From the IMG/VR virus record IMGVR_UViG_3300042307_000844: 64,000 nt of DNA; one strand, written 5' to 3'. How positions within the stretch are numbered: position 1 is the first letter of the stretch; every line of letters begins with the position of its first letter. A program made the translations under genes and the position numbers. Source of the stretch: a virus (lineage: Duplodnaviria > Caudoviricetes). Below are positions 6,630 through 63,659 of this stretch, in pieces. The notes under the pieces were generated by a model, which was given only the letters and a program-made list of their open reading frames with translations, was not told the DNA's origin and made no database searches.

Positions 6630-6657
6630 ATAGTAACATGGAATACTCTCGTGTCAA
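6630..6657 (-). promoter_or_regulatory. Sigma70-type early/middle promoter of the uvsY operon (TTGACA-N16-TACTAT), 7 nt before the ATG
   Basis: Reverse complement reads ttgaca cgagagtattccatgt tactat ttaatat ATG, with an extended TG. Confidence 0.75.
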
Positions 6658-6886
6658 GGATGAAAAGAATATCGCAAATATTTATCAACAAATGCTTAAT
6701 GAGGATATGACAAGCGGTGGTGCGTTTGGTGGTGATATTGCGGGTCATGCTGGAATGGAGAACACGGATTGGTTTGCACCGGGGGATGCCAGAAACCCGT
6801 ATGGAATGGGAATCACTACGAGAAGTGGTCAATTGAGTGCGAAAAAAGGTAAGAAACGTAAGAAAAAGCGTGTTCAGAAACAATAA
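6638..6886 (+). CDS. Small late protein with a basic C-terminus (candidate internal head protein)
   Basis: TAAATA-N5-ATG at 6627-6638; MEYSRVKDEKNIANIYQQMLNED...DWFAPGDARNP...KKGKKRKKKR. Confidence 0.7.
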   Translation: MEYSRVKDEKNIANIYQQMLNEDMTSGGAFGGDIAGHAGMENTDWFAPGDARNPYGMGITTRSGQLSAKKGKKRKKKRVQKQ

Positions 6887-7226
6887 TTTTTGTACATAAG
6901 ACCAAGCCCGCCCACCACCCCTAATTATATTCGCCATATTGATTTGTCAATAGTGTAATATGAATTATTTTCAAGTTTTTTCAATTATTGTTCATCTATT
7001 CCCACCCTCCTCCCTATACCTTAACATGACTATTTCAAAAGTCAATACCTTATAATTAATTAGCTTATTATTAGATATTGATTAGATATTAACTATGATT
7101 AAAGATAACTAAAGAAAGAAACAAAGAAAAAAAAATTAATTCTAATAAATACAATCAATCAGCTTACCAAAGCGTACCAACGCTTATCATTAGATATTGA
7201 TTTAGATTAATTATAATTAAATATAA
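6887..7226. other. 340-bp non-coding region with tandem leftward promoters, G-rich tracts and AT-rich repeats; candidate replication origin
   Basis: TTGACT-N16-TAAGGT (7045-7018) and TTGACA-N15-TATAAT (6950-6924) on the minus strand; gcttat(t/c)attagatattgatt occurs twice (near 7063 and 7182); A-tracts. Confidence 0.45.
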
Positions 7227-7697
7227 ATGGAAAAAATTTTGGAAACCGCCCCACAAATCACCACTTGGAAGAATTTCCCAACCGATACGGAAGGTGTTGT
7301 GGGATTTGTTTACCTCATCCGCAACAATCATCCAGAATCTACACGCAAATATTACATCGGTAAGAAACAGCTTCTCAAGCGTGTGAAGCGCAAACCATTG
7401 AAAGGTAAGACACGCAATCGCATTTCATTTGTGGACAATGATGTGGAGAAGTATTGGGGATCGTCCAAAGAACTCCTGAATGATATTGAGAAATATGGGA
7501 TTGAGCATTTTTCAAGGGAAGTGATAGAGGTGTGTTACTCAAAATTCCATATGACGTATTCGGAACTACTGTGGCAGATCAAAACCAATTCATTAATGGA
7601 TCAAAGATTCTACAATGGCATTCTAAATGTTAGGATTTCGAAGATACCCAAAGGATTTGTTGACATTGAACGTGATCCTGCTATTTTGAAGCTGTGA
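7227..7697 (+). CDS. GIY-YIG endonuclease (short type conserved in T4-like phages)
   Basis: GFVYLIRN...YYIGKK, YWGSS, FSREVIE, FYNGILNVR. Confidence 0.85.
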   Translation: MEKILETAPQITTWKNFPTDTEGVVGFVYLIRNNHPESTRKYYIGKKQLLKRVKRKPLKGKTRNRISFVDNDVEKYWGSSKELLNDIEKYGIEHFSREVIEVCYSKFHMTYSELLWQIKTNSLMDQRFYNGILNVRISKIPKGFVDIERDPAILKL

Positions 7698-8194
7698 CAA
7701 GGATTCAATTTCAAAATAGAAAGATCATCGACATTGATGAGATATTTCGGGATACGAATGGAAATTTCGCAATCCTTTTGGAATCCCTTGGATTGACCAC
7801 CACCTTTGATTTCTCCAAGCGCAATAACCAAAAATTATACACCCACGAGTTCATCAAGACCACAACACAATTCCTGAAATACAACACCCACACGGATTTC
7901 ATTTTCTTTTCCAATGCTCTTACCAAGGACAAGTTCCGCAATCGACTTTTGGCTAAAATCCGGCGAATCTTCAAGATAAGGATTTGGGAAGCCAATTATG
8001 ATTTGGAGCATTTAAAATACCTGATTGATATTCGGGACTGTTCCACCATCTCTGGATTGGAAATGGCATTTTCGGATCGCAAACCCCCATCGTTCCGCAA
8101 GATTTCCAAATATCTGGAAAAGGAAGGTCTGACATTCCTAAATGAAAAATACTTTCAAGATGTGGTAAACAAAATGATAATTTTCAATCATTAA
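7694..8194 (+). CDS. Hypothetical protein
   Basis: ORF coupled to the upstream stop; no motif recognised. Confidence 0.65.
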   Translation: MTRIQFQNRKIIDIDEIFRDTNGNFAILLESLGLTTTFDFSKRNNQKLYTHEFIKTTTQFLKYNTHTDFIFFSNALTKDKFRNRLLAKIRRIFKIRIWEANYDLEHLKYLIDIRDCSTISGLEMAFSDRKPPSFRKISKYLEKEGLTFLNEKYFQDVVNKMIIFNH

Positions 8195-8207
8195 TCTAAA
8201 TAGTATT

Positions 8208-8657
8208 ATGAGCAAATTTCTTGAGATTTTAGAACAACACGATCCTGCCAACCAATCCAAGATGGATGCGGCATTTCAGGCGAAATTCTTCCTTTATGAA
8301 CAAGAAGTCCCTTTCAGTTCCAAAGGTTCCCAAATCATCCTTCATGCGGAACAAGGGGATATTATTTTGGAAGCTGTGGGTATGCAAGCCCGTCAAGATA
8401 TGGGCGATCTCCCAGAGGAAGAACAACAAACAGTTGGTTCGTATGATATTGACGGAGAAGTTGAAAAATTGGGCGCAAAAGCATTAAGTCTTGGCCCAAT
8501 GGGTAAGCTTCTTGGGACGAAGGCACAGAAAGCGAAAGCGGCAGCTAAAGAGCGCGATAATGTTGCGGGTCAAGCGGTAGAACAGTATAAAAACAACACC
8601 AACAGCCTAAGAAAAGCGGTTGCAAAATCCAAAGCGAAAAAATTCAACGTTGTTTAA
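8208..8657 (+). CDS. Late hypothetical protein (candidate internal head protein)
   Basis: TAAATA-N5-ATG; N-terminal KFLEILEQ; Ala/Lys-rich C-terminus. Confidence 0.7.
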   Translation: MSKFLEILEQHDPANQSKMDAAFQAKFFLYEQEVPFSSKGSQIILHAEQGDIILEAVGMQARQDMGDLPEEEQQTVGSYDIDGEVEKLGAKALSLGPMGKLLGTKAQKAKAAAKERDNVAGQAVEQYKNNTNSLRKAVAKSKAKKFNVV

Positions 8658-8658
8658 C

Positions 8659-9063
8659 ATGAAATCTAAAACCTTACAATTAATCGCAAGATACCAAACC
8701 ATCTTGGAACAAGATGAGCAAAATCCTGAAGCTGGTATGGAACAAGCACCACCCCAAGAAGGACAATCTCCTGCACCAGAGATGCCTCCTGAAGAACCTC
8801 AAGAGACAATCCCCCTGAGTTCTCCCGCCGAAGTGCGTTACATGGAAGATGTGGTTCTAGCTGCTCTCATGGAACCCCCCAGTGGCACGGATCGCATTGC
8901 TTTGGAAAACATCCTAGATTTGCTACGCAGACCTGATAATATCAAGAGAATTCAAGCATCGGGACAAACCGCAAAGGATTTGTATCAATCAAAAGTTCTT
9001 CCAATTATCCGTCCTGCACAACAAGGACAGGACATTCGGGATAATTTAGATCAGATGGACTAA
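8659..9063 (+). CDS. Late hypothetical protein, Pro/Glu-rich N-terminal region
   Basis: Likely start MKSKTLQLIARYQTILEQ at 8659. Confidence 0.7.
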   Translation: MKSKTLQLIARYQTILEQDEQNPEAGMEQAPPQEGQSPAPEMPPEEPQETIPLSSPAEVRYMEDVVLAALMEPPSGTDRIALENILDLLRRPDNIKRIQASGQTAKDLYQSKVLPIIRPAQQGQDIRDNLDQMD

Positions 9064-9071
9064 ATAATATT

Positions 9072-9530
9072 ATGAAATTCAAAGGAGAAGAAAATGCCGT
9101 GCTTTGGGAATCCTATACTGGAAGAAATTTTAAACGAGAAGACGCAGAAGAAGACTTCATGAGCGATGATCTTGAAGACGATTTTTCTGATGATGGTATT
9201 GACGATTTTGACGATGACATGGATTTTGGCGATGATCTTGACGATGATCTTGGAGGCGGGGAAGCACAAGGAATGGTCATGCAAATTGATCCAATTGCTC
9301 CCGTGGAATCGCATGAGGTAAATGAGGTTCTGGTATCGGAACTCAAGAAGCTTTCGGAATATGGTAAGCGTCTTTATGACATGAAAGATTCCGCTGAATT
9401 TGAAGATTGGATGGTTTCAGCAATCACCATTGCATCTACTTACGTTTCCGATGTTTGGCACCGTCTGGATGCCAAGGCTGATTTCGCCAATACGGGGTTT
9501 GAGCAAGCCGATGATTTCGAACAATTTTAA
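9072..9530 (+). CDS. Late acidic (Asp-rich) hypothetical protein
   Basis: TAAATA-N5-ATG; LWESY; DDF/DDL low-complexity tract. Confidence 0.7.
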   Translation: MKFKGEENAVLWESYTGRNFKREDAEEDFMSDDLEDDFSDDGIDDFDDDMDFGDDLDDDLGGGEAQGMVMQIDPIAPVESHEVNEVLVSELKKLSEYGKRLYDMKDSAEFEDWMVSAITIASTYVSDVWHRLDAKADFANTGFEQADDFEQF

Positions 9531-9531
9531 T

Positions 9532-9798
9532 ATGATATCCAAATCAGAAGAAAATGAAATTATATGGGAATCGTTGAAAACAGATTCTTCTCAAGATCAT
9601 TTGTCTCTTCTTATGGACTCCAAGCACATGATCGAACATATGATTAAAACGATTAATAATTATTCAATGTTCCATAGCACCCCCGATAAACCTAAACCAA
9701 AATTCCCAAATATTGGGGAGATTTCATCTGCACATAAAAACGTAAAACGGATTTACGAAAGCATGGGCGTAGATGTTAATGAAAAACCAGTAATTTAA
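9532..9798 (+). CDS. Hypothetical protein
   Basis: Likely start MISKSEENEIIWES at 9532; the N-terminus resembles that of the 9072 product. Confidence 0.6.
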   Translation: MISKSEENEIIWESLKTDSSQDHLSLLMDSKHMIEHMIKTINNYSMFHSTPDKPKPKFPNIGEISSAHKNVKRIYESMGVDVNEKPVI

Positions 9799-9802
9799 AT
9801 GA

Positions 9803-10261
9803 ATGAGAAGTTTCAAGCAATTCTTTGTGGAAAAAAACATCCTCGGTTTGGAAGAGGATATCGTAGTTGATGGTGTCGGAACCATATCCGCCAAATTGGA
9901 TACGGGTAATGGTGCTTACAATGTTTTACACGGAGAAGACCTTGAGTTCGGAAAAGACAGACAAACCAACCAACCCATAGTAAGATTTACAACCATGAAT
10001 TCCATACGCTTAGAAAAACCAGTCAAAGATACCATCACTATTAATCTAGGGGCTGGTAATACGGAAGAACGTCCAATCTGTTTATTTGATTGTGCAATTG
10101 GGGGTAAGAGATTCCCCAATACGCCATTTTCAATTGGTAATAGAGCGGATAACGATCATAAGGTTTTAATTGGTAAGGGATTTATAGCGAAGCAGTTGGA
10201 TGCGCTTGTCGATGTTGCCCTTAAAAATGTGGCAGATCAAAATTTAACAGCAGATGTCTAA
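9803..10261 (+). CDS. Retropepsin-like aspartic protease (PF05618/RimB-like family)
   Basis: ISAKLDTGNGAYNVLHG catalytic D-T-G motif, ERPICL, FSIGNRAD...VLIGKGFI. Confidence 0.8.
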   Translation: MRSFKQFFVEKNILGLEEDIVVDGVGTISAKLDTGNGAYNVLHGEDLEFGKDRQTNQPIVRFTTMNSIRLEKPVKDTITINLGAGNTEERPICLFDCAIGGKRFPNTPFSIGNRADNDHKVLIGKGFIAKQLDALVDVALKNVADQNLTADV

Positions 10262-10937
10262 TAAAATATCACAAAAAGAACTTTTGAGTGAGGGATTTTG
10301 GGATGCTTTTGGAAAAGCAAAAGAAAAACTCAGAGAGAAATTTCCTAGAACTACTAGATTGGCATCTTTAGCTGGTTCTGTTGCTGATGTGGTAGCTCCA
10401 GAAATAATGCAACCTATTAGAAAGCAAAAAGAATGGAGAGATTCCGCCAGTGAAAAAGCTAAAAGAGCTTCAATGACTCAAGATCAAATTACGTTGGATT
10501 ACATTCATGAAGATGGGTTCCACGAAGAGCGAGGTGAAAAGCTCAATTGGAATCCGAAACGAAACGCCGATGGGACATACACAGCAACTATTAAAGTGGG
10601 GGAGTTGGTAAACGATCCACAGACGGGTGATCCTAAATTGGGTAGAACATTCTCTGCTGATAAATCAACATATATTGTTAAATTTGATCCGAAAAATAGG
10701 ACAGCCAAAAGAGTTAGAGGACCAGACAGACAGCTTGCTTCCAGTACCGACCAAATTAGGTATGCATTGGAAGATGCTGGTTATAATACTGTGGGTGGTA
10801 TTAAAATTACTGGAAATAATCGAGATGGTACTATAAATGTGGACGCATATATATTAACTAATATTGGTGGGAATCAACAACGGACTTTACAACATTTTAT
10901 TTATAATCCTTCCACGGAACAAATATCCATTCCTTGA
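10254..10937 (+). CDS. Hypothetical protein
   Basis: Operonic 227-aa ORF; N-terminal ELLSEGFWD. Confidence 0.7.
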   Translation: MSNKISQKELLSEGFWDAFGKAKEKLREKFPRTTRLASLAGSVADVVAPEIMQPIRKQKEWRDSASEKAKRASMTQDQITLDYIHEDGFHEERGEKLNWNPKRNADGTYTATIKVGELVNDPQTGDPKLGRTFSADKSTYIVKFDPKNRTAKRVRGPDRQLASSTDQIRYALEDAGYNTVGGIKITGNNRDGTINVDAYILTNIGGNQQRTLQHFIYNPSTEQISIP

Positions 10938-10966
10938 CATTCTCAAATGTCTCCATAAATCCTATC

Positions 10967-12849: not shown

Positions 12850-13596
12850 ATGGCAATTAAAAATGCTCCGAAAGGAAAACGCCGGGAAGTCAATTTAGTA
12901 GATGTTGAAAGTGCTATCGCCAATAGCTACAATAAGATTGACTTCAAATTTAAAAACAGAGCTTTCAAATTAACCGACAAACAAAAAGAGTTGGTTTCAA
13001 TTATAAACGATCCAAATACTAAGGTTGTTATAATTCAAGGCCCAGCCGGAACTGGAAAATCTTGGACATCTATTTATTGTGGATTGACGTTGATTAAAGA
13101 ACAAAGATTTGAAAAGCTTCTTTATGTGAGAGCCATGGTTGAAAGTGCTTCCAAATCCATGGGATATCTTCCGGGGTCAGAAGCAGACAAGACATTACCA
13201 TTTAATGCTGTAGCTTTTGAGTTGATAAATAAGCTGGTAGAAGATAAGGATTTACCTAAAATTCAAAAAGCTGGTATCATCGAAACTATGCCAGTAAACC
13301 ACGCTAGAGGACACACATGGGATAATATGTTTGTTTTAGTTGATGAAACGCAGCAAATGGAAACCAAGGAAATTCTTACGGTTGCTAGTAGGCTGGGGGA
13401 GAATAGCATTATGGTCTTAGCTGGAGATCACATGCAACCAGATATCCAGAGGAGTGGTTTTCAGGCTGTTTATAATGCCTTCAACGATCAAGAATCCATT
13501 GATAATGGTATCAGGACATTTGAATTTACGGAAGATGATATCGTAAGGTCAAAAATTCTCAAATTCATCGTCAAGAAATTTAAGACAATTTCTTAA
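12850..13596 (+). CDS. phoH: PhoH-family ATPase
   Basis: QGPAGTGKS, GYLPG, RGHTWDN, DETQQ, AGDHMQPD, DIVRS. Confidence 0.92.
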   Translation: MAIKNAPKGKRREVNLVDVESAIANSYNKIDFKFKNRAFKLTDKQKELVSIINDPNTKVVIIQGPAGTGKSWTSIYCGLTLIKEQRFEKLLYVRAMVESASKSMGYLPGSEADKTLPFNAVAFELINKLVEDKDLPKIQKAGIIETMPVNHARGHTWDNMFVLVDETQQMETKEILTVASRLGENSIMVLAGDHMQPDIQRSGFQAVYNAFNDQESIDNGIRTFEFTEDDIVRSKILKFIVKKFKTIS

Positions 13597-14848
13597 AATT
13601 TTTAACAGAATATGTTATCAGCCTATTCCAAAAATCCAATCCTTCAGGATGATGTCTTTCAATTATCAATCTGAGAGTCTTCATTAAAACATTTAAATCT
13701 TTCATAATTTGATAAACATTTGAATGTTCTGTTATATTTGGTGCTAAAGATTCGTTGAAGATTTCTTCAAAAGTTCTTCCATTGTTGTTCATTCGTTGTA
13801 ATCTTTCAGCGTGTTTTTTATTATCACTTTCTTTCTTTTTATATGTCATTTTTTTAATCCTACTCAGATCAAAATTAGGATCAATTTGCTCCACTATACT
13901 TCTAATATAATGTGGTCGCCAGTTACAATTGGCTAATTGTTGTATTTCTTTAATATTTAAAGGTTTTTCTTTTAAAGCTGGTATAATTATTTGTTCACAT
14001 AACTCTAAATGTGTCATTCCATTGTTAGCATTTCGTTCCATTACTTCACTCTGTCTCGCCTTCCACGCATCAGAAAGTTTGATACCATATCTTGGATTTT
14101 TATCACCCTTCACCGATAATTCACCGGATGCGAATTTTTGTTTTCTTTTTTCTTTAGTTCTTTTAATACCCGCATCGTAGATGTGTGGATTTTCTAATTT
14201 TCGGATACGCCTAGTTTCTTTTTGTTTTTCAATTGTTTCTTTTGAATGTTTTTTACCTCTCATAAATGATCTATCGACCAATTTATTTGATATTCTCATT
14301 TTTTTCTTGGTTTCTTCACTATGTTTTCTACCAATCATATTACCAACTCTACCTTTTTTATACTCTTCTGGCATGATAGGTGTCCATCCTTGTAAAATCA
14401 TTTCATCATAATGGTTGGGGTCTAATATATTAACATATATAACATTTTCACTCATGTATAATTTTTTATATTTAGGTTTTGCTTTTTTAAGAGATTCATA
14501 AAATCTAGAATTAACATATCGTTGTTCTTGGTGTTTATTTTTTAATCTCATTTGGAAGAAGGCAAAATTCATTTTTTGGTTCTTAATTTTACAATTAAAC
14601 ATTTTCGTCAGCAAAAGATGTGCTATAAAATGATCTCTTCCGGGTAAAATGACTACGTTATCATCACAAGATAGAATTTCAGGATCGACAAATCGTTTAA
14701 ACGATTTTGGTATGATGTGATGTTTTTCACAATAGACATCATCGGAATATTGAGTTGATAAAGATTTATTTATTATGGTAACATACCATTTGACATATTT
14801 TGAGTTGTTCGATATTCTTGTTATTTCGTTTAGTATTGATTTGGTCAT
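13580..14848 (-). mobile_element. Free-standing HNH homing endonuclease with NUMOD3 repeats
   Basis: EKHHIIPKS...NVVILPGRDHFIAHLLL; GRKHSEETKKKM and GKKHSKETIEK NUMOD3 motifs; AT-rich. Confidence 0.85.
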
Positions 14849-28121: not shown

Positions 28122-28586
28122 ATGGGTTCTTTGGGATTATCAAAACGGAATAATAAGTTTCATCAAGGTTTCTACGCACCCAAAAATCTAAATAAATATG
28201 TCGGCAATATTGATAATATTATATACCGATCCGGTTTGGAATTAAAGTTGTTTCGCTTTTGTGATAATAATCCCAATGTGGTGGAATGGAATAGTGAGGA
28301 CATTATTGTGCCTTATTTCGATACTCTTTTGAAAAAGAATCGTAAATATTTTATTGATGCCTATGTAAAGATACAGGAAGGGGATATTGTCAAGAAATAT
28401 TTGGTGGAAGTCAAGCCTTGGAAGCAGACGCAAGAGCCGAAAGCTGGGAAGGGTAAGAAGAAATCCAATCTGTTATATGAACAGGTTGCTTGGAAAAACA
28501 ATTGTGACAAGTGGGCTTTCGCAAAAGAATTCGCCAAGAAACATGGGATGGAATTCATTATTATTACGGAAAAAGAACTAAATTGA
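28122..28586 (+). CDS. gp4: gp4 head-completion nuclease (TnsA-like)
   Basis: QGFYAPKNLNKYVG, IIYRSGLE, WNSEDIIVPY, YFIDAY, LVEVKPWKQT, N..KW. Confidence 0.9.
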   Translation: MGSLGLSKRNNKFHQGFYAPKNLNKYVGNIDNIIYRSGLELKLFRFCDNNPNVVEWNSEDIIVPYFDTLLKKNRKYFIDAYVKIQEGDIVKKYLVEVKPWKQTQEPKAGKGKKKSNLLYEQVAWKNNCDKWAFAKEFAKKHGMEFIIITEKELN

Positions 28587-30380: not shown

Positions 30381-30395
30381 AACATAAATAAGAAC

Positions 30396-31067
30396 ATGGC
30401 ATTAAAACTAAAGCTGATGTACAATGATCCCACCAACTTCGATGGATTGGAAATTGTCGAAGAACAGACTAATCGTGGAAGTGGTAGTAATCTATATGTG
30501 CAGGGGGTTTACCTTGGTTCGGAGATTAATAAGAACGGGAGAATCTATCCAGAGCATGAGCTTGATCGTGAAATTAATCGGTATCTGAATGAGATGGTTG
30601 TAACTAAACGATCACTTGGGGAATTAAATCATTCCAATACCAGTGAGGTAAATCCAGAGCGTGCATGTCACCTTGTTACTGAACTCAGGAAAGATGGTAA
30701 GGCATGGGTTGGGAAATCAAAGATTCTCTCTGGAGAAGGCATGATATGTGGAAATATTGTTCGCGGACTCATCAATAATGGAGTTTCCCTCGGTATGAGT
30801 ACTAGATCGCTTGGATCGTTGCGTGAAGCGTCTGGTCATAAGGTTGTGGAAAACATGCATTTGGTTGCAATCGACTGTGTTGCCGATCCATCATATCCAA
30901 CAGCTTTTGTTGACGGTATTCTTGAAAGTAAAAGTTGGACTATTACCGAAAACGGTGATTACGAACAAATCTACGAGGACTTTGGCAAAGCTCTAAAAAC
31001 ACTTCCAAAACACGATGTTGATAATTATCTTCGCGCACAGATCATAAAGTTTATCCAACAAATCTAA
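30396..31067 (+). CDS. gp21: gp21 prohead protease
   Basis: NKNGRIYP, SLGELNH, RACHLV, GKSKIL, GMSTRSLGSL, DCVADPSYPTAFVDGILE. Confidence 0.95.
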   Translation: MALKLKLMYNDPTNFDGLEIVEEQTNRGSGSNLYVQGVYLGSEINKNGRIYPEHELDREINRYLNEMVVTKRSLGELNHSNTSEVNPERACHLVTELRKDGKAWVGKSKILSGEGMICGNIVRGLINNGVSLGMSTRSLGSLREASGHKVVENMHLVAIDCVADPSYPTAFVDGILESKSWTITENGDYEQIYEDFGKALKTLPKHDVDNYLRAQIIKFIQQI

Positions 31068-31612: not shown

Positions 31613-31649
31613 TTTTCAAAAAATTCATACCCGATCTCTAAATAATAAT

Positions 31650-32537
31650 ATGAAGAAAAAAAGCACGAACCTTTTCTCGGAAGACATCCAAAAAAGTCTG
31701 GGACTCAGCGATGAATCCATCAAGGCAATTCAGGAATCCCTTGAATCCAAGATTGATCTGGCCGTTGAAGCTGCCCTTTTGGAACAGGATGAAGTATATG
31801 CCTCCAAACTCAAGACCCTGATGACATCCGTTGATAAGGATCGCACGGTCAAGATGAAAAAGATCATGGAAGCTTTTGATAGAGATAAGACCGCAAAGCT
31901 GGTCAAGGTTATCAAAAAGTATGAGCGCGAACAGAACGGCGATCTTCTCAAGTTCAAAAAACAACTTACGGAATCCGTTAGTGCTTTCCTTGACGAGTTC
32001 ATTGATGAATCCATTCCAACCAAAGATATCAAGGAAGCTGTCAAGAACAAGACAGCCATGAATGTTCTGGAAAATCTCAAAAAGGTCTTTGCAATCGATC
32101 TTGCTGTCATGAAGGAATCCGTATCTGGGGCAATCGTGGAAGGTAAGAGTGAAATCGACAAGCTCCGCAATAAGAATGCTGAACTTGAAAAGAACGTTCG
32201 CTTCCTCACCGAATCCAAGAACAAGTCGGAAGTCAAACTTTTCCTTGAAGGCAGAACTTCCAAGTATCCTGAAACCAAAAAGAATTTTGTGAAGAAGGCT
32301 TTGGGAGACAAGTCCCTGCAATTCATTCAGGATAACTTTGATTACACCGTTCGCCTCTTTGAAAAACAAGAGAAAAAGCAACTGGAAACCATCAAGGAAG
32401 AAGCTGTTCAAAACCGCAAGCACAAGCCCGATTTCGTAAAAGAACAAAAAATTGTTACTGAAAAGGTAAATAATAATACGGATGAAGAATCTGATCCTTA
32501 TCTGGATGTTTTGAAACAACAAACATTCCGTAGGTAA
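31650..32537 (+). CDS. gp22: gp22 major prohead scaffolding protein
   Basis: Directly upstream of gp23; coiled coil with many I/L-x-E-S sites; TAAATA-N5-ATG at 31639-31650. Confidence 0.85.
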   Translation: MKKKSTNLFSEDIQKSLGLSDESIKAIQESLESKIDLAVEAALLEQDEVYASKLKTLMTSVDKDRTVKMKKIMEAFDRDKTAKLVKVIKKYEREQNGDLLKFKKQLTESVSAFLDEFIDESIPTKDIKEAVKNKTAMNVLENLKKVFAIDLAVMKESVSGAIVEGKSEIDKLRNKNAELEKNVRFLTESKNKSEVKLFLEGRTSKYPETKKNFVKKALGDKSLQFIQDNFDYTVRLFEKQEKKQLETIKEEAVQNRKHKPDFVKEQKIVTEKVNNNTDEESDPYLDVLKQQTFRR

Positions 32538-32600: not shown

Positions 32601-34067
32601 ATGAATAATCTACCATCTACTGATATCCAAGGCTCCAAGATGCAACAAGCAGTTGCCAAGTGGCGTAAGGTTCTCGATTATAGCTCGGACTCGATCCCAG
32701 CTATTCGGAACGAACACGTTTACAAGACCACTGCAATGCTCCTTGAGAACCAAGAACAGTGGTGCTACCAAGAATCGAATACTGCTGCCTCCGGTGGTGT
32801 GTTCGGTGCAACGACTTCCATTGGCAACGGTATCGCTAACAGCGACTCCTATGCTACTGGTGATGCTCGTCTGCCAAAGATTCTGATTCCTATGATTCGA
32901 CGCACTTTCCCTGAATTGATTTCCAATGAGATCGTAGGCGTTCAGCCTATGGGTGGTCCTGTTGGTCTTGCTTTCGCTCTTCGTTACGCCTATCAAGGTG
33001 ATACTCTGAGCGATAGTAGCATCGACGGCAAGACCTCTGGAGGTGGAACTGGTTCTAGCTTCGGTAATCAGCTTAAAGCTGCTTACGATGGTAGTACTGG
33101 TCTTCCAGACACCGAACTTGGTTATCAACTTCTGGACACACGTTTCACTGGCACATCTGCTGGATTCCTTTCGGGTAACACCGAACACTGGACATTCGCA
33201 GATCAAGACCGTGGTATTGCTGAACTTTTGAGCAACTACGAATTGACGGGTAAAATCCCTCAAATCGAACTCAAGTTTGAAAAGACCGCTGTTGAGGCCG
33301 GAACACGTAGATTAGCTACCCGCTGGTCGGTTGAGTTGGAACAAGACATCAAAAACATGAACGGTATCGATATCGATGGAGAACTTACGAATGCAATGTC
33401 GTATGAAATCCAAGCCGAAATCGACCGCGAAGTTGTGATGCGTATGATCCAAACTGCCTTCAATGCTGGTGCTGGCGCAGGTTTCTCCATCTGGAGTCCT
33501 GTTAGTGCGGATGGACGTTGGACTGCTGAACGGAATCTTACCTTCTATCAACGCCTTATTATCGAAAGTGGTCGTATGGCTGCTCGTAACCGTAGAGGTG
33601 CCGCTAACTTTGTTATCGCCACTCCTCGTGTTTGCAGCATCCTCGAAATGCTTCCTGACTTTAAGGTTTACGAAATCAATGGCACAGTCTCGACTGCTGG
33701 TGTTGGTATCGCAAAAGTTGGTACTGTTGGTAGCCGCTGGACGGTTTATCGTGATACTCGGACTGAAGTTCAGAATTCCTCGCTCTATAGCCCTAACTAC
33801 TACTCTGGTCAAACCAGTGGTGTGGAATATGCGCTGTTGGGTTACAAGGGTTCTGAATACTATGATACTGGTCTGATATACTGTCCGTATATCCCGATCA
33901 TGGTGCAAAGAACGATTGGACCAAATGATTTCGCTCCTCGTGTGGGTCTTATGACTCGTTACGGGATTGTGAACAACATTTTTGGTGCATCGCTCTATTA
34001 CCACCTTATCATCGTAAAGGGTCTTGGTACTGCGTTTACACCGGGGTCGGTTTCAACCTACCTCTAA
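32601..34067 (+). CDS. gp23: gp23 major capsid protein
   Basis: TAMLLENQE, LIPMIRRTFPELISNEIVGVQPMGGPVGLAFALR, RRLATRWSVELEQDIKNMNGID, GLIYCPYIP, PRVGLMTRYG. Confidence 0.98.
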   Translation: MNNLPSTDIQGSKMQQAVAKWRKVLDYSSDSIPAIRNEHVYKTTAMLLENQEQWCYQESNTAASGGVFGATTSIGNGIANSDSYATGDARLPKILIPMIRRTFPELISNEIVGVQPMGGPVGLAFALRYAYQGDTLSDSSIDGKTSGGGTGSSFGNQLKAAYDGSTGLPDTELGYQLLDTRFTGTSAGFLSGNTEHWTFADQDRGIAELLSNYELTGKIPQIELKFEKTAVEAGTRRLATRWSVELEQDIKNMNGIDIDGELTNAMSYEIQAEIDREVVMRMIQTAFNAGAGAGFSIWSPVSADGRWTAERNLTFYQRLIIESGRMAARNRRGAANFVIATPRVCSILEMLPDFKVYEINGTVSTAGVGIAKVGTVGSRWTVYRDTRTEVQNSSLYSPNYYSGQTSGVEYALLGYKGSEYYDTGLIYCPYIPIMVQRTIGPNDFAPRVGLMTRYGIVNNIFGASLYYHLIIVKGLGTAFTPGSVSTYL

Positions 34068-39623: not shown

Positions 39624-40172
39624 ATGAAACAGAGGGATATAGAAAATATCCAAAGGATTTTGATGAATGAAAGTCCTTGGAATTATGGGGTAATGGACGA
39701 TGATTTTGAAGAACACATGTCCAATTTTTCCGTTGAAAAGGTTCAACAAATGAAATTTGTAACTGAGTGGAATACCATGAATGTTTACTATCAGACTGAA
39801 TTTGAATATGGGGAATATTACATTTTAAAAAATAATGAATTGGTCGCTTTTTATAGGTTTGATCCAAAGTCTAATTACATCCAAACGGAAATAACTTGGA
39901 ATAAGCGAGGAAACAAAGGAGTTCTTAGAAAATTTTTGGCTGAATATATTATTCCTAAATATGGGATGGTTGAAAGTGGTAACAAATTATCAACGAACGC
40001 ATTTAGTATGTGGGAGAATATGTATGTGGAGTATCCACAGTATGATTATCTAGTGAAATATAAAAACGGAGAAACAAAAACAATAACACACCACACACAA
40101 TTCGTGTTGTATAGCAGTTCATCTTTTAATGATGACCTTGCTTTCACAACATTTATAGTAAAAGAAAAATGA
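39624..40172 (+). CDS. Hypothetical protein, possibly GNAT-like fold
   Basis: RGNKG...L...I...VESGNKLSTNAFSMWE resembles phage GNAT-like domains (weak). Confidence 0.5.
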   Translation: MKQRDIENIQRILMNESPWNYGVMDDDFEEHMSNFSVEKVQQMKFVTEWNTMNVYYQTEFEYGEYYILKNNELVAFYRFDPKSNYIQTEITWNKRGNKGVLRKFLAEYIIPKYGMVESGNKLSTNAFSMWENMYVEYPQYDYLVKYKNGETKTITHHTQFVLYSSSSFNDDLAFTTFIVKEK

Positions 40173-45196: not shown

Positions 45197-45505
45197 ATGA
45201 CTACGAAAGATCAATTTGCAATTTCAAATCTTATAACAGAGATGTATTCAGAACAATCAGGTATTGTTAAATTGGAGCAAGATGAATTTGGAAATCTTTC
45301 GACCAGAACACCAGACGGTGAATTGGAAATGTTAATGGGATATTCTAGCGGTGGAGAACCAGTAACTTTCAAATTTCCAATGAGTGAGTATCAACAACAA
45401 TATTTTTCCAATGCTTTGTATGATGCAATTGAGACTGGTATGTTACCATCGTCCACGACAGCAGTTCAATTACCAGATGGTTCCACTTTTGAAATACCTA
45501 AATAG
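45197..45505 (+). CDS. Late hypothetical protein
   Basis: TAAATA-N5-ATG; MTTKDQFAISNLITEMYSEQ. Confidence 0.65.
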   Translation: MTTKDQFAISNLITEMYSEQSGIVKLEQDEFGNLSTRTPDGELEMLMGYSSGGEPVTFKFPMSEYQQQYFSNALYDAIETGMLPSSTTAVQLPDGSTFEIPK

Positions 45506-48481: not shown

Positions 48482-48901
48482 ATGACTTCCCACGACTTCA
48501 AAAATCTAGCACTATTATATGAAAGTATGGAAAACCATACCATGTCTCTGAACGATATTTATGGTGATATTGAATATGATGTTCCTGAAAACGAGGCACT
48601 TTATAGTGCTGTTGACCCCGAAATAGGGGATATCCAAATTCCGATCAAAACACTATCACCAGATCAATTGTTGAAATTGACGACATATAAAGATGATACC
48701 ACGGTATTTCAAGCATATAAAGATTTTGCTGATAGGGATCAGAAGCAAATCGTAAATCATTACAAGAAAAATTTAAATGAATTACACGATAACCCAATCG
48801 TCATTAATAATAACACGGCTTTGGATGGGTATCATCGAATTATTGCAGCTATTTTGATGAAACAATCTTTGAAAGTATTGGATGTGTCGGATATACAGTA
48901 G
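48482..48901 (+). CDS. ParB/Sulfiredoxin-like domain protein
   Basis: NPIVI...LDGYHRIIAA; late promoter. Confidence 0.7.
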   Translation: MTSHDFKNLALLYESMENHTMSLNDIYGDIEYDVPENEALYSAVDPEIGDIQIPIKTLSPDQLLKLTTYKDDTTVFQAYKDFADRDQKQIVNHYKKNLNELHDNPIVINNNTALDGYHRIIAAILMKQSLKVLDVSDIQ

Positions 48902-56816: not shown

Positions 56817-57122
56817 GTGGATCAAGAATTAAAAAACATCTATTCCGATATTATTTTGGAATACCAATCGGGTTTCAATCCTCCCCAAAGGGTTCCCAAG
56901 CAAGCGGTTCCCGATGAAGCTGGGGGTAAATTATCATATGGTAAGATTAAAATGGGAATGGTCAACACTCCAGTAACTACCAATGTCTATGGGGAACAGG
57001 AGGAGGAAGCTGAAGGTATTTTAAAAATTATTCAGGATGTGGAATCGGAATATCGGGGGGATTCTCCCATAAATAATGCCGTGAGATTGGCATTCGGCAA
57101 ATTAAAGGAAAAATTGGCATGA
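56817..57122 (+). CDS. Late hypothetical protein
   Basis: TAAATA-N5-GTG; DQELKNIYSDIILEY. Confidence 0.65.
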   Translation: MDQELKNIYSDIILEYQSGFNPPQRVPKQAVPDEAGGKLSYGKIKMGMVNTPVTTNVYGEQEEEAEGILKIIQDVESEYRGDSPINNAVRLAFGKLKEKLA

Positions 57123-59071: not shown

Positions 59072-59119
59072 AATAATATTTAGCTTGACATTGGGAAATA
59101 TTTTATTATAGTGATGGAA

Positions 59120-59755: not shown

Positions 59756-59756
59756 T

Positions 59757-60291: not shown

Positions 60292-60298
60292 TTTCGTT

Positions 60299-60801: not shown

Positions 60802-61087
60802 TTTTCATCAGAAAACGATTGAAGAAAAATCACAGTATTTTCATTCTTTATCTGACAAAGATGTGTATGATTTATCACCATCTATGTCTTTTATATTTTA
60901 TAAAACCAATAACATCGAGGGATGTTTATATGATGGATGGTATTATGATAAGGTTGTAATTAATAAAAATGCCTCAACATATCAACAAAAATTAATTTGT
61001 AAGGTAGTGGAAAAATATTATGGGTTTTTGAAATGGGATGACATATTGGGATCGCAAAAAATAGTTAATCACATTAAAACATTATGA
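60782..61087 (+). CDS. Hypothetical protein
   Basis: Likely start MKKLPN at 60782. Confidence 0.55.
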   Translation: MKKLPNNFHQKTIEEKSQYFHSLSDKDVYDLSPSMSFIFYKTNNIEGCLYDGWYYDKVVINKNASTYQQKLICKVVEKYYGFLKWDDILGSQKIVNHIKTL

Positions 61088-61257
61088 ATAAAAAACATCC
61101 ACATTATAAGGCAACTGTTGTGAGATACAGAGGGATCGGTGGCGGATTTAAAATTAAATGCAAAGACGGATCATTGTCTGATGAAACATACGGAACTAGG
61201 AAAGGTGCGGAGAAAATGATCAACGGAACATTTGGAAGTGCTGGAGGTATTAGATGA
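61084..61257 (+). CDS. 57-aa hypothetical protein; below the ORF-track cutoff
   Basis: Manual translation MNKKHPHYKATVVRYRGIGGGFKIKCKDGSLSDETYGTRKGAEKMINGTFGSAGGIR, coupled to the upstream stop. Confidence 0.5.
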   Translation: MNKKHPHYKATVVRYRGIGGGFKIKCKDGSLSDETYGTRKGAEKMINGTFGSAGGIR

Positions 61258-61370
61258 AAACAAAGGAAGAGCTTTTAGAGGAATGGAAAGATGATGATAA
61301 TGTGGAAGGTGAATGAGTGTAAGAATGCTGGATTAAAAACTAGATTATTATAAAGTGATTAAATAATCAA

Positions 61371-62135
61371 ATGGAAAGCTTCAAGACATTTTACGAAAAA
61401 TTTGTAAACGGGGAACTCCCCCCAACCAACCGTAGGCGTAGGATGCTTCTGGAGGCGCAATACACTTACCCATCCACCGGAGATAAGGCGATAATGGATT
61501 TATATGCCTTATATGCCCTGTGGTGGGAGCTTGGAGGGGGTAAGGCTTCTTATGGCTACGAAGACACCAACGTTCGCAATTATAAGGTCAGGGAAAAGGT
61601 TGACCGCTATTTTGAGGAAGCTCTGGTGGTTATTTCCAATACCCTTTTGGAAGAATCCAAGGAAGCCATTGCAGATGAAGCTGAAAATATCTTCGACGAA
61701 TACCTAATCCCCTCTCAAGTGGTGGTGGATTGGTTTAAGGAAAATGATATGATGCCAAAATTGGCAAAAGCTTATAATGGCGGTAAAGGGGGAATTTGGT
61801 TCTCCGTGTTTGATTATGGGGATACCCTTGATATATTATCCGCGCCATTTTGGGAACAATATGCAAATCTTTATGGTGGGGATAAATGGGTGACTATTAC
61901 GGAAACCACCCGCCAACTGGATAATGCTATTCGTAGGGAGAAGGTTCAAAATCTTATGAACGCCTTTGTCAAATTCATGGACTTGGAACACAATACTGGA
62001 AGTCTTTATTCCAAACTTAAAAGAATGAAAGTATCCAAGGAAACACTTGATCTTCGGGCGGGGTTCCGTTCAGCGGAGGATTTTAAACCGCATGTCAGTC
62101 CCCAAGTGGCGAAGCTGATTGGGCTTGTGAGATAA
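61371..62135 (+). CDS. Late hypothetical protein with YGGxxW and DLEHNTG motifs
   Basis: TAAATA-N5-ATG; 254-aa ORF. Confidence 0.7.
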   Translation: MESFKTFYEKFVNGELPPTNRRRRMLLEAQYTYPSTGDKAIMDLYALYALWWELGGGKASYGYEDTNVRNYKVREKVDRYFEEALVVISNTLLEESKEAIADEAENIFDEYLIPSQVVVDWFKENDMMPKLAKAYNGGKGGIWFSVFDYGDTLDILSAPFWEQYANLYGGDKWVTITETTRQLDNAIRREKVQNLMNAFVKFMDLEHNTGSLYSKLKRMKVSKETLDLRAGFRSAEDFKPHVSPQVAKLIGLVR

Positions 62136-63659
62136 TTAATTCAATGAATGAAAATATGTAACCCATTCATTGAATTGGTTCCCCTTCAAAATACCGGAAG
62201 CAATTGTTTTCATTTCCTCTTCATTCGGTTCCCTACCAGCATTCAATTCTTCTAGAACATATTCTTGCAAGGCTGCTGTGATATCCTTGAATTTGGATTT
62301 ATCCTTGACAAGAATTGGAAACCATTGCATTAATTTATCACCACTGAAATATTGTTTCAGAAGTTTTCTGGTGTCATCTTCCGATCCTCCAATGTTGGAA
62401 ACCTTCTCTTCCGCCCTTTTGATCTTCTCCCAAAATTCCTGTTTATTGAAAAGACCAGAACCACGGGATGCTTCATCACAGTAACCAACTGCTTTGATGG
62501 TTTCCCATGATGGATTCTGAATCAGCTTGGTGAGAGTCTTGATATTCAATTTATCTAAATTGTGAACAAGCATATGTTTATCAACTGCTGCCAATATGTT
62601 CTTTTTATCTTGGGGGGATAATTCCGCAAAACGCAATCTTTTGAAAATTTCCTCAACAATGGGAACTCCCGCCGATTCGTGTCCATGATAATTACTGAAA
62701 CCATTATCTTTCTTTCCTCTGGTAGTGGCTTTCCCGAAGTCATGGAAGAGAACTGCCAGATTGATCACAGGGTCTTTGTATGGTGATGCCTTTAGACATT
62801 CATAGATGTGTCCCAGAACTTGGGAATCCCCTTCGGGGTGGTGTTGTGGGTCGTGATCATATCCTTCCATCGTGGTAAATTCGGGAAGGATATCATGGAG
62901 GATTTTGGTGTCCTGTAATTTCTTTAGGAAATTCGCAAGCGTTTGTCCCGTTTTGGCGGATTTGAAAAATTCCTTGGAAATGCTTTCTTGGGAAATTGCC
63001 TTGGGGTCTTGGAGGAGATGCTTCAATTCAATTGCGGCAGCTTTGGTATTATCCTCAATTTCAAAATCCATCTTGGCGGCAAAACGAAAGACACGGAGGA
63101 TTCTCGTAGCGTCTTCCAGAAATCTTTGTTTTGCGTCTCCCACGGCACGGACGATCTTGTTCTTCAAATCTTCCAGACCACCTTGGTAATCCACGATCTT
63201 ACCCTCTTCATCCAACCCGAAAGAATTGATTGTTAAATCTCGCCGCTCCGTATCCTTTTCAAATGAATCTGTTTCTGTTGATATGTTGGATTGTCTTCCA
63301 ATATCGCCGGAGTCGGTTCTGAATTTTGCCAGATCATAAACATAACCTTTCCAGAGAATGGCATACACGGGTTGGGAATCGTTCTTGGAAATATTTCTCA
63401 ATTCAAAATGTTTTTCCAATTCTTCCACGGGAATATTGGTAGCCAAATCCACATCATCAATTGCGTTACCCATGAGTAGATCACGGGGAACTCCCCCAAC
63501 GATATAGATTTCTCCTTGTAATTTTGCCTTGATATTCTTCATCAAATCCAAAGCAACTTGGAGTTCTTCCGATTCTTTGACAGCGGTATTCCACTTCTCA
63601 TCAAAATCCTCCACGTATTCACGCATGAGTCGGTGATATAATTTATGAAATCTTTCCAT
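62136..63659 (-). CDS. CCA-adding-type tRNA nucleotidyltransferase (class II) with an HD domain
   Basis: YIVGGVPRDLL..DDVDLAT, FRTD, RRDLTINS, RFLEDATRILRVFRFA, HHPEG, LFHDFGK; likely start MERFHK at 63659. Confidence 0.9.
   Translation of the reverse strand: MERFHKLYHRLMREYVEDFDEKWNTAVKESEELQVALDLMKNIKAKLQGEIYIVGGVPRDLLMGNAIDDVDLATNIPVEELEKHFELRNISKNDSQPVYAILWKGYVYDLAKFRTDSGDIGRQSNISTETDSFEKDTERRDLTINSFGLDEEGKIVDYQGGLEDLKNKIVRAVGDAKQRFLEDATRILRVFRFAAKMDFEIEDNTKAAAIELKHLLQDPKAISQESISKEFFKSAKTGQTLANFLKKLQDTKILHDILPEFTTMEGYDHDPQHHPEGDSQVLGHIYECLKASPYKDPVINLAVLFHDFGKATTRGKKDNGFSNYHGHESAGVPIVEEIFKRLRFAELSPQDKKNILAAVDKHMLVHNLDKLNIKTLTKLIQNPSWETIKAVGYCDEASRGSGLFNKQEFWEKIKRAEEKVSNIGGSEDDTRKLLKQYFSGDKLMQWFPILVKDKSKFKDITAALQEYVLEELNAGREPNEEEMKTIASGILKGNQFNEWVTYFHSLN

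What the first reader, a model, noticed from the sequence alone, without database searches (positions are those of the whole stretch)
6638..63659. A dispersed family of late proteins with N-terminal gp21-type L/I-x-E motifs: a putative capsid-cargo system
Many unrelated genes, most with their own late promoter and some in a late operon, begin with a short helix ending in hydrophobic-x-Glu: IYQQMLNE (6638), KFLEILE (8208), YQTILE (8659), LWESY (9072), IWES (9532), FKQFFVE (9803), LLSE (10254), LITEMYSE (45197), LLYES (48482), IYSDIILE (56817), FKTFYE...MLLE (61371), LYHRLMRE (63659). In T4, internal proteins carry an N-terminal capsid-targeting sequence that gp21 removes after (I/L)-x-E, and they are ejected with the DNA. 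Here the putative tag is attached to enzymes (aspartic protease, ParB-like, CCA enzyme). Inference: a modular set of enzymes delivered at injection. The early-promoter gene at 39624 has a similar motif (RILMNES), which is a caveat.
Basis: inference. Interest (0 to 1): 0.7.

Follow-up and report, generated by a model that had tools for sequence, protein, structure and literature searches.

The report
T4-type capsid-address tags on phage proteins
An uncultured lake relative of phage T4 puts almost the same ten-residue "pack me into the head" tag that T4 uses on several unrelated late proteins, including a small protease and a tRNA CCA-adding enzyme.

Summary
The window is part of a 177.6-kb uncultured T4-like lake phage. 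It encodes an intact gp21-type head protease (30396-31067), a gp22-like scaffold and gp23.

All listed ORFs and peptides exist. However, the loose motif (L/I-x-E within 25 residues) is common everywhere:
- late genes: 39%
- early genes: 20%
- other genes: 27%
- internal windows: 20-25%

About half of the late hits are therefore expected by chance.

Inside the list sits a sharply defined tag, M-x-[S/T]-F-x-x-[F/Y]-[F/Y/I]-x-E. It heads six unrelated genes genome-wide (9803 and 61371 in the window), with close variants on 8208 and on the CCA enzyme (62136-63659, minus strand). It nearly matches T4 IPI (MKTFKEF...) and IPII/III (MKTYQEFIAE). Its constrained positions 4, 7, 8 and 10 are the ones shown experimentally in T4 to govern targeting and cleavage. 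In related contigs it heads 15 unrelated cargo clusters and never follows an early promoter box.

Best reading: a T4-type capsid targeting sequence removed by gp21. 6638-10937 is a variable internal/core-protein operon. Leaders at 6638, 8659, 9072, 10254 and 45197 have comparative support only. Those at 9532, 48482 and 56817 are undecided. "ParB-like" was not found.

This scan has already reported such tags in several other uncultured T4-like phages, so this is a new member of a known kind. Packaging, cleavage and injection are untested.

The parts
30396..31067 (+). gp21-type prohead serine protease, the presumed enzyme that removes the leaders
   Evidence: Pfam PF03420 at 3.6e-30 and PHROG 207 head maturation protease. 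The GELNH histidine and the G-M-S-T-R serine align with T4 H85 and S140. Late box TAAATA-N5-ATG.
31650..32537 (+). gp22-like scaffolding protein, the presumed docking partner in the prohead core
   Evidence: It sits between gp21 and gp23, is helical and charged, and has many [LI]-x-E sites. Its N-terminus ...NLFSE is conserved in 21 homologues. Assignment rests on position and composition only; there is no family hit.
32601..34067 (+). gp23 major capsid protein. Predicted maturation cut after Glu58 (W-C-Y-Q-E|S)
   Evidence: Pfam PF07068 at 1.4e-83. The site W-C-[Y/F/V]-x-E|[S/A/G]-N-T-A is conserved in G000, G002 and G005. It lies in the same N-terminal region as the T4 gp23 cut FLTE|AEIGG, though T4's cut aligns about 10 residues downstream, opposite a gap in these sequences.
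9803..10261 (+). Retropepsin-like protease (PF05618) with strict tag MRSFKQFFVE
   Evidence: Pfam 4.7e-08, with the domain starting at residue 14. D33-x-G35 is invariant. The tag is kept in 79 homologues at 50-99% identity. F4 is invariant with 22 TTC and 22 TTT codons, position 7 is F/Y, position 8 is F/I/Y, and position 10 is mostly E. Matrix score 12.2 against an internal-window maximum of 8.0.
61371..62135 (+). 254-aa all-helical orphan with strict tag MESFKTFYEK and a second conserved site ...MLLE|A at residue 28
   Evidence: Late box. The tag is kept in 17 of 20 homologues. The three most distant homologues carry other leaders (MGNLITE..., MNLITQIRE...). L26 and E28 are nearly invariant. 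Model pLDDT 88, with no informative fold match.
62136..63659 (-). CCA-adding enzyme (tRNA nucleotidyltransferase plus HD domain) with about 46 extra N-terminal residues that begin MERFHKLYHRLMRE
   Evidence: PF01743 at 3.9e-25 from residue 51. PHROG 2244 matches residues 50-459 to profile positions 4-386. Orthologues carry different leaders before the conserved DDFxEKW: MIPFKKFFFE (strict tag, late box) in L086-L088 and MKFDKLRYMLLE (late box) in L085.
8208..8657 (+). 149-aa orphan with leader MSKFLEILE, a T4-consensus variant with F4, E6, I7, L8 and E9
   Evidence: Late box. In 27 homologues below 70% identity the leader is 84% conserved against 39% for the rest, and the Glu is kept in 100%.
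6638..6886 (+). 82-aa protein with leader ...IYQQMLNE|DMTSGG. The predicted mature part resembles the N-terminal arm of the mature capsid protein
   Evidence: Late box. BLASTP to MCP residues 64-92 gives 48% identity at E 3.9e-4. The Glu is kept in 96% of 23 divergent homologues. Distant homologues carry tag-like leaders such as TFKQYFYE|SM and KFARYFKRILQE|DM.
8659..9063 (+). 134-aa acidic, proline-rich protein with leader MKSKTLQLIARYQTILE|QDEQ. Candidate prohead-core or internal peptide
   Evidence: Second gene of the 8208 late operon. The leader is 63% conserved against 40% for the rest, and the Glu is kept in 77%. Predicted mature pI 4.2.
9072..9530 (+). 152-aa very acidic protein with leader MKFKGEENAVLWE|S. 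Candidate core protein like T4 gp67/gp68
   Evidence: Late box. Leader 55% conserved against 39% for the rest, and the Glu is kept in 90% of 40 homologues. D+E 42 against K+R 10, pI 4.1.
9532..9798 (+). 88-aa ORF whose leader MISKSEENEIIWE|S repeats that of 9072. Undecided
   Evidence: Only one homologue was found among the fetched loci. There is no family hit above threshold.
10254..10937 (+). 227-aa basic protein with leader ...QKELLSE|GFWD
   Evidence: The leader is 71% conserved against 21% for the rest in 19 divergent homologues, and the Glu is kept in 100%. pI 9.3.
45197..45505 (+). 102-aa orphan between gp15 and the portal gene, with leader MTTKDQFAISNLITEMYSE
   Evidence: Late box. In G002 the same slot between gp15 and the portal holds an 87-aa protein that shares only the leader (MTKNDQIAIAELYLENYEN) and no other recognisable sequence. 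The pattern alone cannot be separated from chance.
48482..48901 (+). 139-aa orphan with leader ...NLALLYE|S. Undecided
   Evidence: Late box. One close homologue only. No family hit.
56817..57122 (+). 101-aa orphan with GTG start and leader ...NIYSDIILE|YQSGFNPPQR. Undecided
   Evidence: Late box before the GTG. The leader and the following residues are conserved in the few relatives found; one search reports four hits, two of which it prints (L082 and G002). That is too few to separate the leader from the body.
39624..40172 (+). Control: gene behind a TTGACA/TATCAT promoter, with RILMNES
   Evidence: The upstream sequence was read. The loose motif occurs at background frequency in early genes. 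Treated as chance.

Best explanation
The phage uses a T4-type capsid targeting sequence.

Proposed mechanism. A short N-terminal amphipathic leader, consensus M-[K/x]-[S/T/N]-F-[K/x]-[Q/E]-[F/Y]-[F/Y/I]-x-E, docks the newly made late protein onto the scaffolding core while the prohead assembles. The gp21-type protease then cuts after the Glu. The mature protein stays inside the head and leaves with the DNA at infection.

Probable cargo in this genome:
- in the window: the retropepsin-like protease (9803), the 254-aa helical protein (61371), the CCA-adding enzyme (62136-63659, minus strand) and the 149-aa protein (8208)
- outside the window: a protein-kinase-fold protein and three further proteins.

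The block 6638-10937 is a late internal/core-protein operon whose gene content varies between relatives. Some of its products (8659, 9072) are probably acidic core peptides and not delivered enzymes.

Shown here: the tag, its statistics, its conservation at the protein level, its attachment to unrelated proteins, its link to late promoter boxes, and the presence of an intact protease.

Inferred, not shown: binding to the core, cleavage, residence in the virion, ejection, and any activity in the host.
For: 1. Same signal as T4. I read IPI (MKTFKEF...ITE|A) and IPII/IPIII (MKTYQEFIAE|A) from the T4 record. The tags here are MRSFKQFFVE, MESFKTFYEK, MKSFLEFFEE, MKSFYQFFWE, MISFSEFYLIKE and MESFSTFFER.

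2. Same critical positions. In T4, residues 4 and 7 govern targeting and residues 8 and 10 govern processing (Mullaney and Black 1996, as reviewed in PMC9026906). In 44 distinct homologue N-termini of 9803, F4 is invariant with balanced synonymous codons, position 7 is F/Y, position 8 is F/I/Y and position 10 is mostly E.

3. Modularity. The tagged proteins share no other similarity. In the three genomes plus 87 related loci, 159 strict tags fall into 15 unrelated cargo clusters. The CCA enzyme carries three different leaders in different relatives. The distant relative G005 has three extra strict-tag genes in the syntenic operon.

4. Expression class. 22 strict tags lie directly behind a late box, the rest are operonic, and none of 159 lies behind an early box. 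No early gene scores in the independent matrix test.

5. Protease present, with catalytic residues conserved. The capsid protein has a conserved hydrophobic-x-E| site in the same N-terminal region as the T4 gp23 cut.

6. The leaders are add-ons to known domains. The PF05618 domain starts at residue 14 of 9803, and the CCA domain starts at residue 50-51. The kinase-fold model leaves residues 1-18 unstructured, with pLDDT under 50.
Against: There is no protein-level evidence of any kind. The phage is uncultured.

The cleavage rule (hydrophobic-x-Glu) is too degenerate to predict substrates on its own.

The gene at window-oriented -77469 carries a strict tag but has no late box and lies next to the early region.

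9803 is conserved across the whole lineage, unlike the hypervariable T-even internal proteins. It may therefore work in head maturation and not in the host.

The predicted mature cargo proteins are not uniformly small and basic like the T4 internal proteins; pI ranges from 4.1 to 10.3.
Confidence: 0.7

Rival explanations
1. The leaders are assembly propeptides of scaffold or core components only. The proteins enter the prohead, are degraded or expelled during maturation like T4 gp22, gp67 and gp68, and nothing functional is delivered to the host.
For: 8659 and 9072 are highly acidic and low in complexity after the leader, like the acidic tail of T4 gp67. The 6638-10937 operon is syntenic across relatives that share only 52% identity in 9803. 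9803 is conserved like a core gene.
Against: Folded enzymes carry the same leader: a kinase fold with intact catalytic motifs, a CCA enzyme and a protease. In T4 this leader class marks proteins that stay in the head and are injected (PMC3012670; PMC9026906).
Confidence: 0.15
2. The N-terminal amphipathic helix has another role, such as membrane or oligomer contact, chaperone recognition, or a codon or RNA constraint on leaderless late messages. It is unrelated to the capsid.
For: Late messages here appear leaderless, because the box ends 5 nt before the ATG, so the first codons could be under RNA-level constraint. AT-rich codons encode K, F, Y, I, N and E.
Against: 9803 is not promoter-adjacent yet keeps the tag. 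Synonymous codons vary freely at the invariant Phe. Early genes are also leaderless and lack the tag. The match to the experimentally mapped T4 positions would then be a coincidence.
Confidence: 0.08
3. For the looser members of the list (9532, 48482, 56817, and 39624 as control) the L/I-x-E match is chance and they are not part of any cargo system.
For: The background frequency of the loose motif is 20-27%. A matrix built from five 'aromatic-Glu' leaders of relatives does not separate late N-termini from internal windows: 6/56 late against 10/182 other above the 95th percentile, with an internal maximum of 20.0 against 14.2 for the best listed gene. Few or no homologues are available to test conservation.
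Against: All three non-control genes have late boxes and are small orphans. 9532 repeats the leader of 9072. 45197, which has the same leader type, keeps its leader while its body is replaced in G002.
Confidence: 0.45

Closest known systems
Capsid targeting sequence (CTS) of T4 internal proteins IPI, IPII and IPIII (Mullaney and Black 1996; reviews PMC3012670 and PMC9026906)
   Same: A 10-19 residue N-terminal leader. Hydrophobic or aromatic residues at positions 4 and 7. Hydrophobic-x-Glu at positions 8-10. Attached to otherwise unrelated late proteins. A gp21-family protease in the same genome. Near-identical wording (MKTFKEF / MKTYQEFIAE against MKTFKQFF / MRSFKQFFVE).
   Different: The host phage shares at most 34% capsid-protein identity with any isolate. 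There are more tagged genes, about 8 per genome, spread over about 140 kb. The cargo includes recognisable enzymes and acidic proteins in addition to small basic proteins. Nothing is verified at the protein level.
N-terminal propeptides of T4 gp24 (MAKINELLRE|S) and Alt (MELITELFDE|D)
   Same: Ten-residue leaders with the pattern hydrophobic-4, Glu-6, hydrophobic-7/8, Glu-10. Alt is an enzyme packaged and injected. 8208 (MSKFLEILE) and some 61371 homologues (MGNLITE...) resemble this variant.
   Different: No homology of the bodies. No ADP-ribosyltransferase was found among the tagged proteins examined.
T4 prohead core proteins gp67 and gp68 and the acidic internal peptides
   Same: Small late proteins with [L/I]-x-E sites followed by very acidic stretches, encoded near the head genes. 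8659 and 9072 look like this.
   Different: No sequence similarity was detected. Here they lie in a separate operon about 20 kb from gp21-gp23.
Ejection and inner-body proteins of phiKZ, 201phi2-1 and SPN3US, cleaved after S/A-x-Glu by a gp21-related protease (PMC5694885)
   Same: Many head-internal proteins are processed C-terminal to Glu, and the cargo includes enzymes.
   Different: Those propeptides are mostly over 100 residues long and no shared short tag is known. A different capsid lineage.
Small stand-alone copies of the capsid protein's cleavage region
   Same: 6638-6886 encodes a leader ending in Glu followed by a copy of the capsid protein's post-cleavage N-arm (SGGxFG...GDAR.P).
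   Different: I did not compare 6638 with T4 61.1 directly. Its function is unknown.

Membership tests
T4-type CTS / internal-protein packaging system | A gp21-family (Peptidase S77) prohead protease encoded by the same phage, with catalytic His and Ser | tested here: met
   PF03420 at 3.6e-30. The His of GELNH and the Ser of GMSTR align with T4 H85 and S140.
T4-type CTS / internal-protein packaging system | An N-terminal leader of about 10-19 residues with conserved hydrophobic residues at positions 4 and 7 (targeting determinants in T4) | tested here: met
   F4 is invariant and position 7 is F/Y in 44 distinct 9803 homologues. The same holds in six unrelated genes of this genome. The T4 determinants are taken from PMC9026906.
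T4-type CTS / internal-protein packaging system | The leader ends in hydrophobic-x-Glu (processing determinants at positions 8 and 10) | tested here: met
   Position 8 is F/I/Y and position 10 is E in most sequences. LIKE|A is invariant in the kinase-fold family. The P1 Glu is kept in 77-100% of divergent homologues of six families. This is sequence evidence only.
T4-type CTS / internal-protein packaging system | The same leader on proteins that are otherwise unrelated | tested here: met
   All-against-all BLASTP finds no similarity between tagged proteins. There are 15 cargo clusters in relatives. Leaders are swapped on the CCA enzyme. At 45197 the body is swapped behind a kept leader.
T4-type CTS / internal-protein packaging system | Expression together with the head genes (late) | tested here: inconclusive
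   Most tagged genes lie behind, or in operons behind, the TAA[A/G]TA-N5-ATG box shared with gp21, gp22 and tail genes. That this box is the late promoter is inferred from its likeness to T4 TATAAATA and from its gene set. One strict-tag gene (window-oriented -77469) has no box.
T4-type CTS / internal-protein packaging system | Protein present in the virion with a neo-N-terminus after Glu, and ejected with the DNA | not testable with these tools
   Uncultured phage. No proteomic data are reachable.
T-even internal proteins (IPI/II/III) in the narrow sense | Small, basic, DNA-associated, hypervariable proteins | tested here: not met
   Predicted mature forms range from 60 to 493 residues and from pI 4.1 to 10.3. 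9803 is conserved across the lineage. They are therefore not filed as IP homologues, only as users of the same targeting signal.
Retropepsin-like aspartic peptidase (Pfam PF05618) | Domain match above the gathering score, and a conserved D-[S/T]-G active-site motif | tested here: met
   33.5 bits against a cutoff of 27. D33, G35, N36, G37 and A38 are invariant in 19 sequences.
   No ParB family appeared in the Pfam or PHROG scans of the listed genes. The 61371 model gave no informative fold match.

The most novel reading that the evidence does not exclude
The phage pre-loads its head with a set of ready-made enzymes: a CCA-adding/HD tRNA repair enzyme, a minimal protein kinase, a retropepsin-like protease and a possible metallopeptidase. 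These act in the host in the first seconds of infection, before any phage gene is expressed. They could, for example, repair tRNA 3' ends attacked by host defence nucleases, or phosphorylate or cleave host proteins. The shared ten-residue tag would let new cargo be recruited by simple gene fusion.
Probability: 0.3. Interest if true: 0.65.

Novelty: new member of a known kind. Interest (0 to 1): 0.42.

Why it matters
The T4 capsid-address tag, mapped residue by residue in the 1990s, seems to have survived almost unchanged in a lineage whose capsid protein is only about a third identical to T4's.

This has three consequences:
- The tag becomes a usable sequence marker for predicting virion cargo in uncultured T4-type phages.
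- It points to specific candidate injected enzymes whose targets could reveal host defences in lake bacteria: a CCA-adding enzyme, a kinase-fold protein and a retropepsin-like protease.
- It warns that the bare L/I-x-E rule over-predicts.

The mechanism itself is textbook for T-even phages. This scan has already found comparable tag families in other uncultured T4-like genomes, so the advance is incremental.

Tried and rejected
1. Structure-based complex test of the gp22-like scaffold (alignment A3) with the tagged protease (alignment A4). The tool returned 'no answer', score 0.00, and the controls were not run. This is neither support nor evidence against binding.

2. A second leader class (aromatic-Glu type, e.g. 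LLYES, IIWES, ELYLES). A matrix from five leaders of relatives did not separate late N-termini from internal windows. I therefore dropped it as a statistically defined family.

3. Unbiased pairwise comparison of N-terminal 9-mers. Only a modest excess appeared among late genes: 39 pairs at or above 23, against 17-24 in controls. The top pairs were the F-x-x-[L/I/F]-[F/Y]-E helices.

4. Function of 61371. No Pfam or PHROG hit, no Atlas feature hit, no Foldseek PDB hit at or below 1e-3, VIA Z at most 6.1, which is below the noise level for helical bundles, and only unnamed AlphaFold DB clusters.

5. Isolated-phage database. There was no nucleotide match for the window, and no tblastn match for the 9803 protein. 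No cultured relative can therefore lend proteomic data.

6. My first three home-made gene callers were imperfect. The statistics use the fourth set, merged with promoter-defined starts. Some short 'other' ORFs in it may be spurious.

7. PDB sequence search of the weak metallopeptidase candidate (L111:16604-17470) found nothing.

Full report
CONTEXT. The window is the reverse strand of bases 2719-66718 of a 177,639-bp IMG/VR virus record. Its major capsid protein matches Pfam Gp23 (1.4e-83) but is at most 34% identical to that of any isolated phage; the nearest are cyanomyoviruses. Neither the window DNA nor the 9803 protein has a match among isolated phages. The window holds:
- a gp21-type prohead protease (30396-31067; PF03420 at 3.6e-30)
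- a gp22-like scaffold (31650-32537)
- gp23 (32601-34067)
- gp15 (44091-45170)
- the portal protein (45546-47369).

The protease keeps the catalytic His and Ser of T4 gp21.

PROMOTER CLASSES. TAAATA is followed by ATG exactly 5 nt later in 43 of its 189 occurrences. TAAGTA shows the same spacing in 9 of 39. This gives 58 ORFs with such a box, among them gp21, the scaffold and tail genes. I take this as the late class, by analogy with T4 TATAAATA (my own knowledge). A different box, AAAAACTAG...TACAAT, lies 14 nt before the ATG of 29 small genes and marks the early class. Both classes imply leaderless messages, which other agents of this scan have already reported for this genome.

CHECK OF THE OBSERVATION. 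All quoted peptides are present. 56817 starts with GTG, and 63659 is the start of the minus-strand gene 62136-63659. Seven of the listed genes have their own late box, and four lie in the operons behind 8208 and 9072.

The motif as defined is weak. [LI]-x-E ending within residues 5-25 occurs in:
- 22/56 late genes (39%)
- 5/25 early genes (20%)
- 49/182 other genes (27%)
- 20-25% of equally wide internal windows.

Fisher p is 0.13 against early genes and 0.002 against internal windows.

THE STRICT TAG. Among 2,074 ATG-ORFs of the genome, M-x-S-F-x-x-F-[F/Y] heads six genes:
- 9803 (MRSFKQFFVE) in the window
- 61371 (MESFKTFYEK) in the window
- four outside it, given as loci: L111:16604-17470 (MESFSTFFER), L110:15729-16085 (MKSFLEFFEE), L109:1524-2123 (MKSFYQFFWE) and L108:8746-9477 (MISFSEFYLIKE).

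These proteins share no other similarity.

I read the T4 references from NC_000866: IPI is MKTFKEF...ITE|A, IPII and IPIII are MKTYQEFIAE|A, gp24 is MAKINELLRE|S and Alt is MELITELFDE|D. The review PMC9026906 reports that in the IPIII leader residues 4 and 7 carry targeting and residues 8 and 10 carry processing. In 44 distinct N-termini of 9803 homologues at 50-99% identity:
- position 4 is invariant Phe, encoded 22 times by TTC and 22 times by TTT
- position 7 is F/Y
- position 8 is F/I/Y
- position 10 is mostly Glu.

The constraint is therefore on the peptide, at exactly the T4 positions.

INDEPENDENT TESTS.
- Across this genome, two relatives (G002, 197,682 bp, complete; G005, 76,845 bp) and 87 related loci, 159 of 29,919 ATG peptides match a strict tag expression. 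They fall into 15 cargo clusters unrelated to each other.
- None follows an early box. 22 follow a late box directly and the rest are operonic.
- A weight matrix trained only on the seven clusters that have no member in this genome ranks four of this genome's tagged N-termini above the maximum of 2,956 internal windows. It places no early gene above the 95th percentile.

MODULARITY.
- The CCA-adding enzyme (PF01743 from residue 51; PHROG 2244 from residue 50) begins MERFHKLYHRLMRE here. In L086-L088 it begins MIPFKKFFFE, and in L085 MKFDKLRYMLLE. In each case the leader precedes the conserved DDFxEKW and follows a late box.
- In the 61371 family, 17 of 20 homologues keep the tag. The three most distant carry other leaders.
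- In the distant relative G005, the operon syntenic with 6638-10937 holds three additional strict-tag genes of 406, 182 and 130 residues. The locus thus behaves like the variable internal-protein loci of T-even phages (PMC3012670; PMC9026906).

THE 6638-10937 BLOCK. Among homologues below 70% identity, the leader is better conserved than the body (leader / body):
- 8208: 0.84 / 0.39
- 10254: 0.71 / 0.21
- 8659: 0.63 / 0.40
- 9072: 0.55 / 0.39
- 9803: 0.62 / 0.52.

The predicted P1 Glu is kept in 77-100%. After the leader, 8659 and 9072 are very acidic (pI about 4.1-4.2), like the acidic tail of T4 gp67. I read them as core or internal-peptide proteins.

6638 encodes a leader ending MLNE followed by a copy of the capsid protein's N-arm (48% over 29 residues, E 3.9e-4). 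The capsid protein itself has a conserved W-C-[Y/F/V]-x-E|[S/A/G]NTA site in the same N-terminal region as T4's gp23 cut, which aligns about 10 residues downstream. Distant 6638 homologues carry tag-like leaders such as TFKQYFYE|SM.

OTHER LISTED GENES.
- 45197 lies between gp15 and the portal gene. In G002 the same slot holds an 87-residue protein that shares only the leader. This supports the idea that the leader is the selected part.
- A matrix for this 'aromatic-Glu' leader type does not beat chance. So 9532, 48482 and 56817 stay undecided.
- 39624 is treated as a chance hit.

CARGO IDENTITIES.
- 9803 is a retropepsin-like PF05618 domain with an invariant D-x-G.
- L108:8746-9477 has a protein-kinase fold: 74 PDB kinase matches at E at or below 1e-3, with GxGxxG, Lys65, Asp187/Asn192 and Asp205 invariant. 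Its leader is unstructured in the model.
- L111:16604-17470 gives only a sub-threshold metallopeptidase hit.
- 61371 is a confident all-helical model without an informative match.
- No ParB-like domain was found. 12850-13596 is PhoH-like.

MECHANISM AND LIMITS. The most likely reading is the T4 mechanism. The leader docks on the scaffolding core, gp21 cuts after Glu, and the body stays in the head and is ejected with the DNA. Only the sequence-level features are shown here. The complex prediction of scaffold with 9803 gave no answer and is not counted either way.

The rival readings are:
- core-only propeptides with no delivery
- another role for the N-terminal helix
- chance, for the loose members.

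NOVELTY. The concept is established for T-even phages. This scan has already reported shared leaders of this type in several other uncultured T4-like genomes, and a capsid-N-terminus mimic in T4 itself. What this case adds:
- a tag almost identical to T4's own at great evolutionary distance
- specific enzyme cargo candidates
- a measured false-positive rate for the bare L/I-x-E rule.

Noticed in passing
window-wide, e.g. 8194-8210, 9058-9074, 30382-30398, 31636-31652: Late-type boxes TAAATA (43 cases) and TAAGTA (9 cases) end exactly 5 nt before the start codon, so late messages should be leaderless. TAAGTA may mark a second promoter subclass.
   Followed up: partly
6638-6886: An 82-aa late protein whose part after the predicted cut copies the N-terminal arm of the mature capsid protein (SGGxFG...GDAR.P). 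It is conserved in 35 related loci. It resembles the 'capsid N-terminus mimic' noted by this scan for T4 gene 61.1.
   Followed up: partly
28620-30380 (+) and 34895-36349 (-): Two large paralogous HNH or homing-endonuclease-like genes (28-34% identity, E 3e-34), each with a late-type box. They flank the gp21-gp22-gp23 head module on either side.
   Followed up: no
7227-7697, 13580-14848 (-), 28122-28586: Further mobile-nuclease genes: a SegE-like GIY-YIG gene, a NUMOD3-containing gene and a TnsA-like endonuclease. The first interrupts the internal-protein operon between 6638 and 8208.
   Followed up: no
31076-31612: A 178-aa highly charged late protein between the protease and the scaffold gene, with no [LI]-x-E site and only a sub-threshold ArfA hit. 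It may be a further core component.
   Followed up: no
61330-61373: The 61371 gene is preceded by an early-type AAAAACTAG box and then by a late box, so it may be expressed in both phases.
   Followed up: no
L108:8746-9477 (outside the window, same genome): A 243-aa minimal protein-kinase-fold protein with a strict capsid-targeting-like leader. A short stretch also matches the PHROG of the T7 gp0.7-type kinase.
   Followed up: partly
L117:132-2156 (gene 63664-65688 minus strand; only its 3' end is in the window): A 674-aa late orphan next to the CCA enzyme begins MIFQLQELYESVLITEM, another amphipathic leader with two hydrophobic-x-Glu sites. No family hit.
   Followed up: partly
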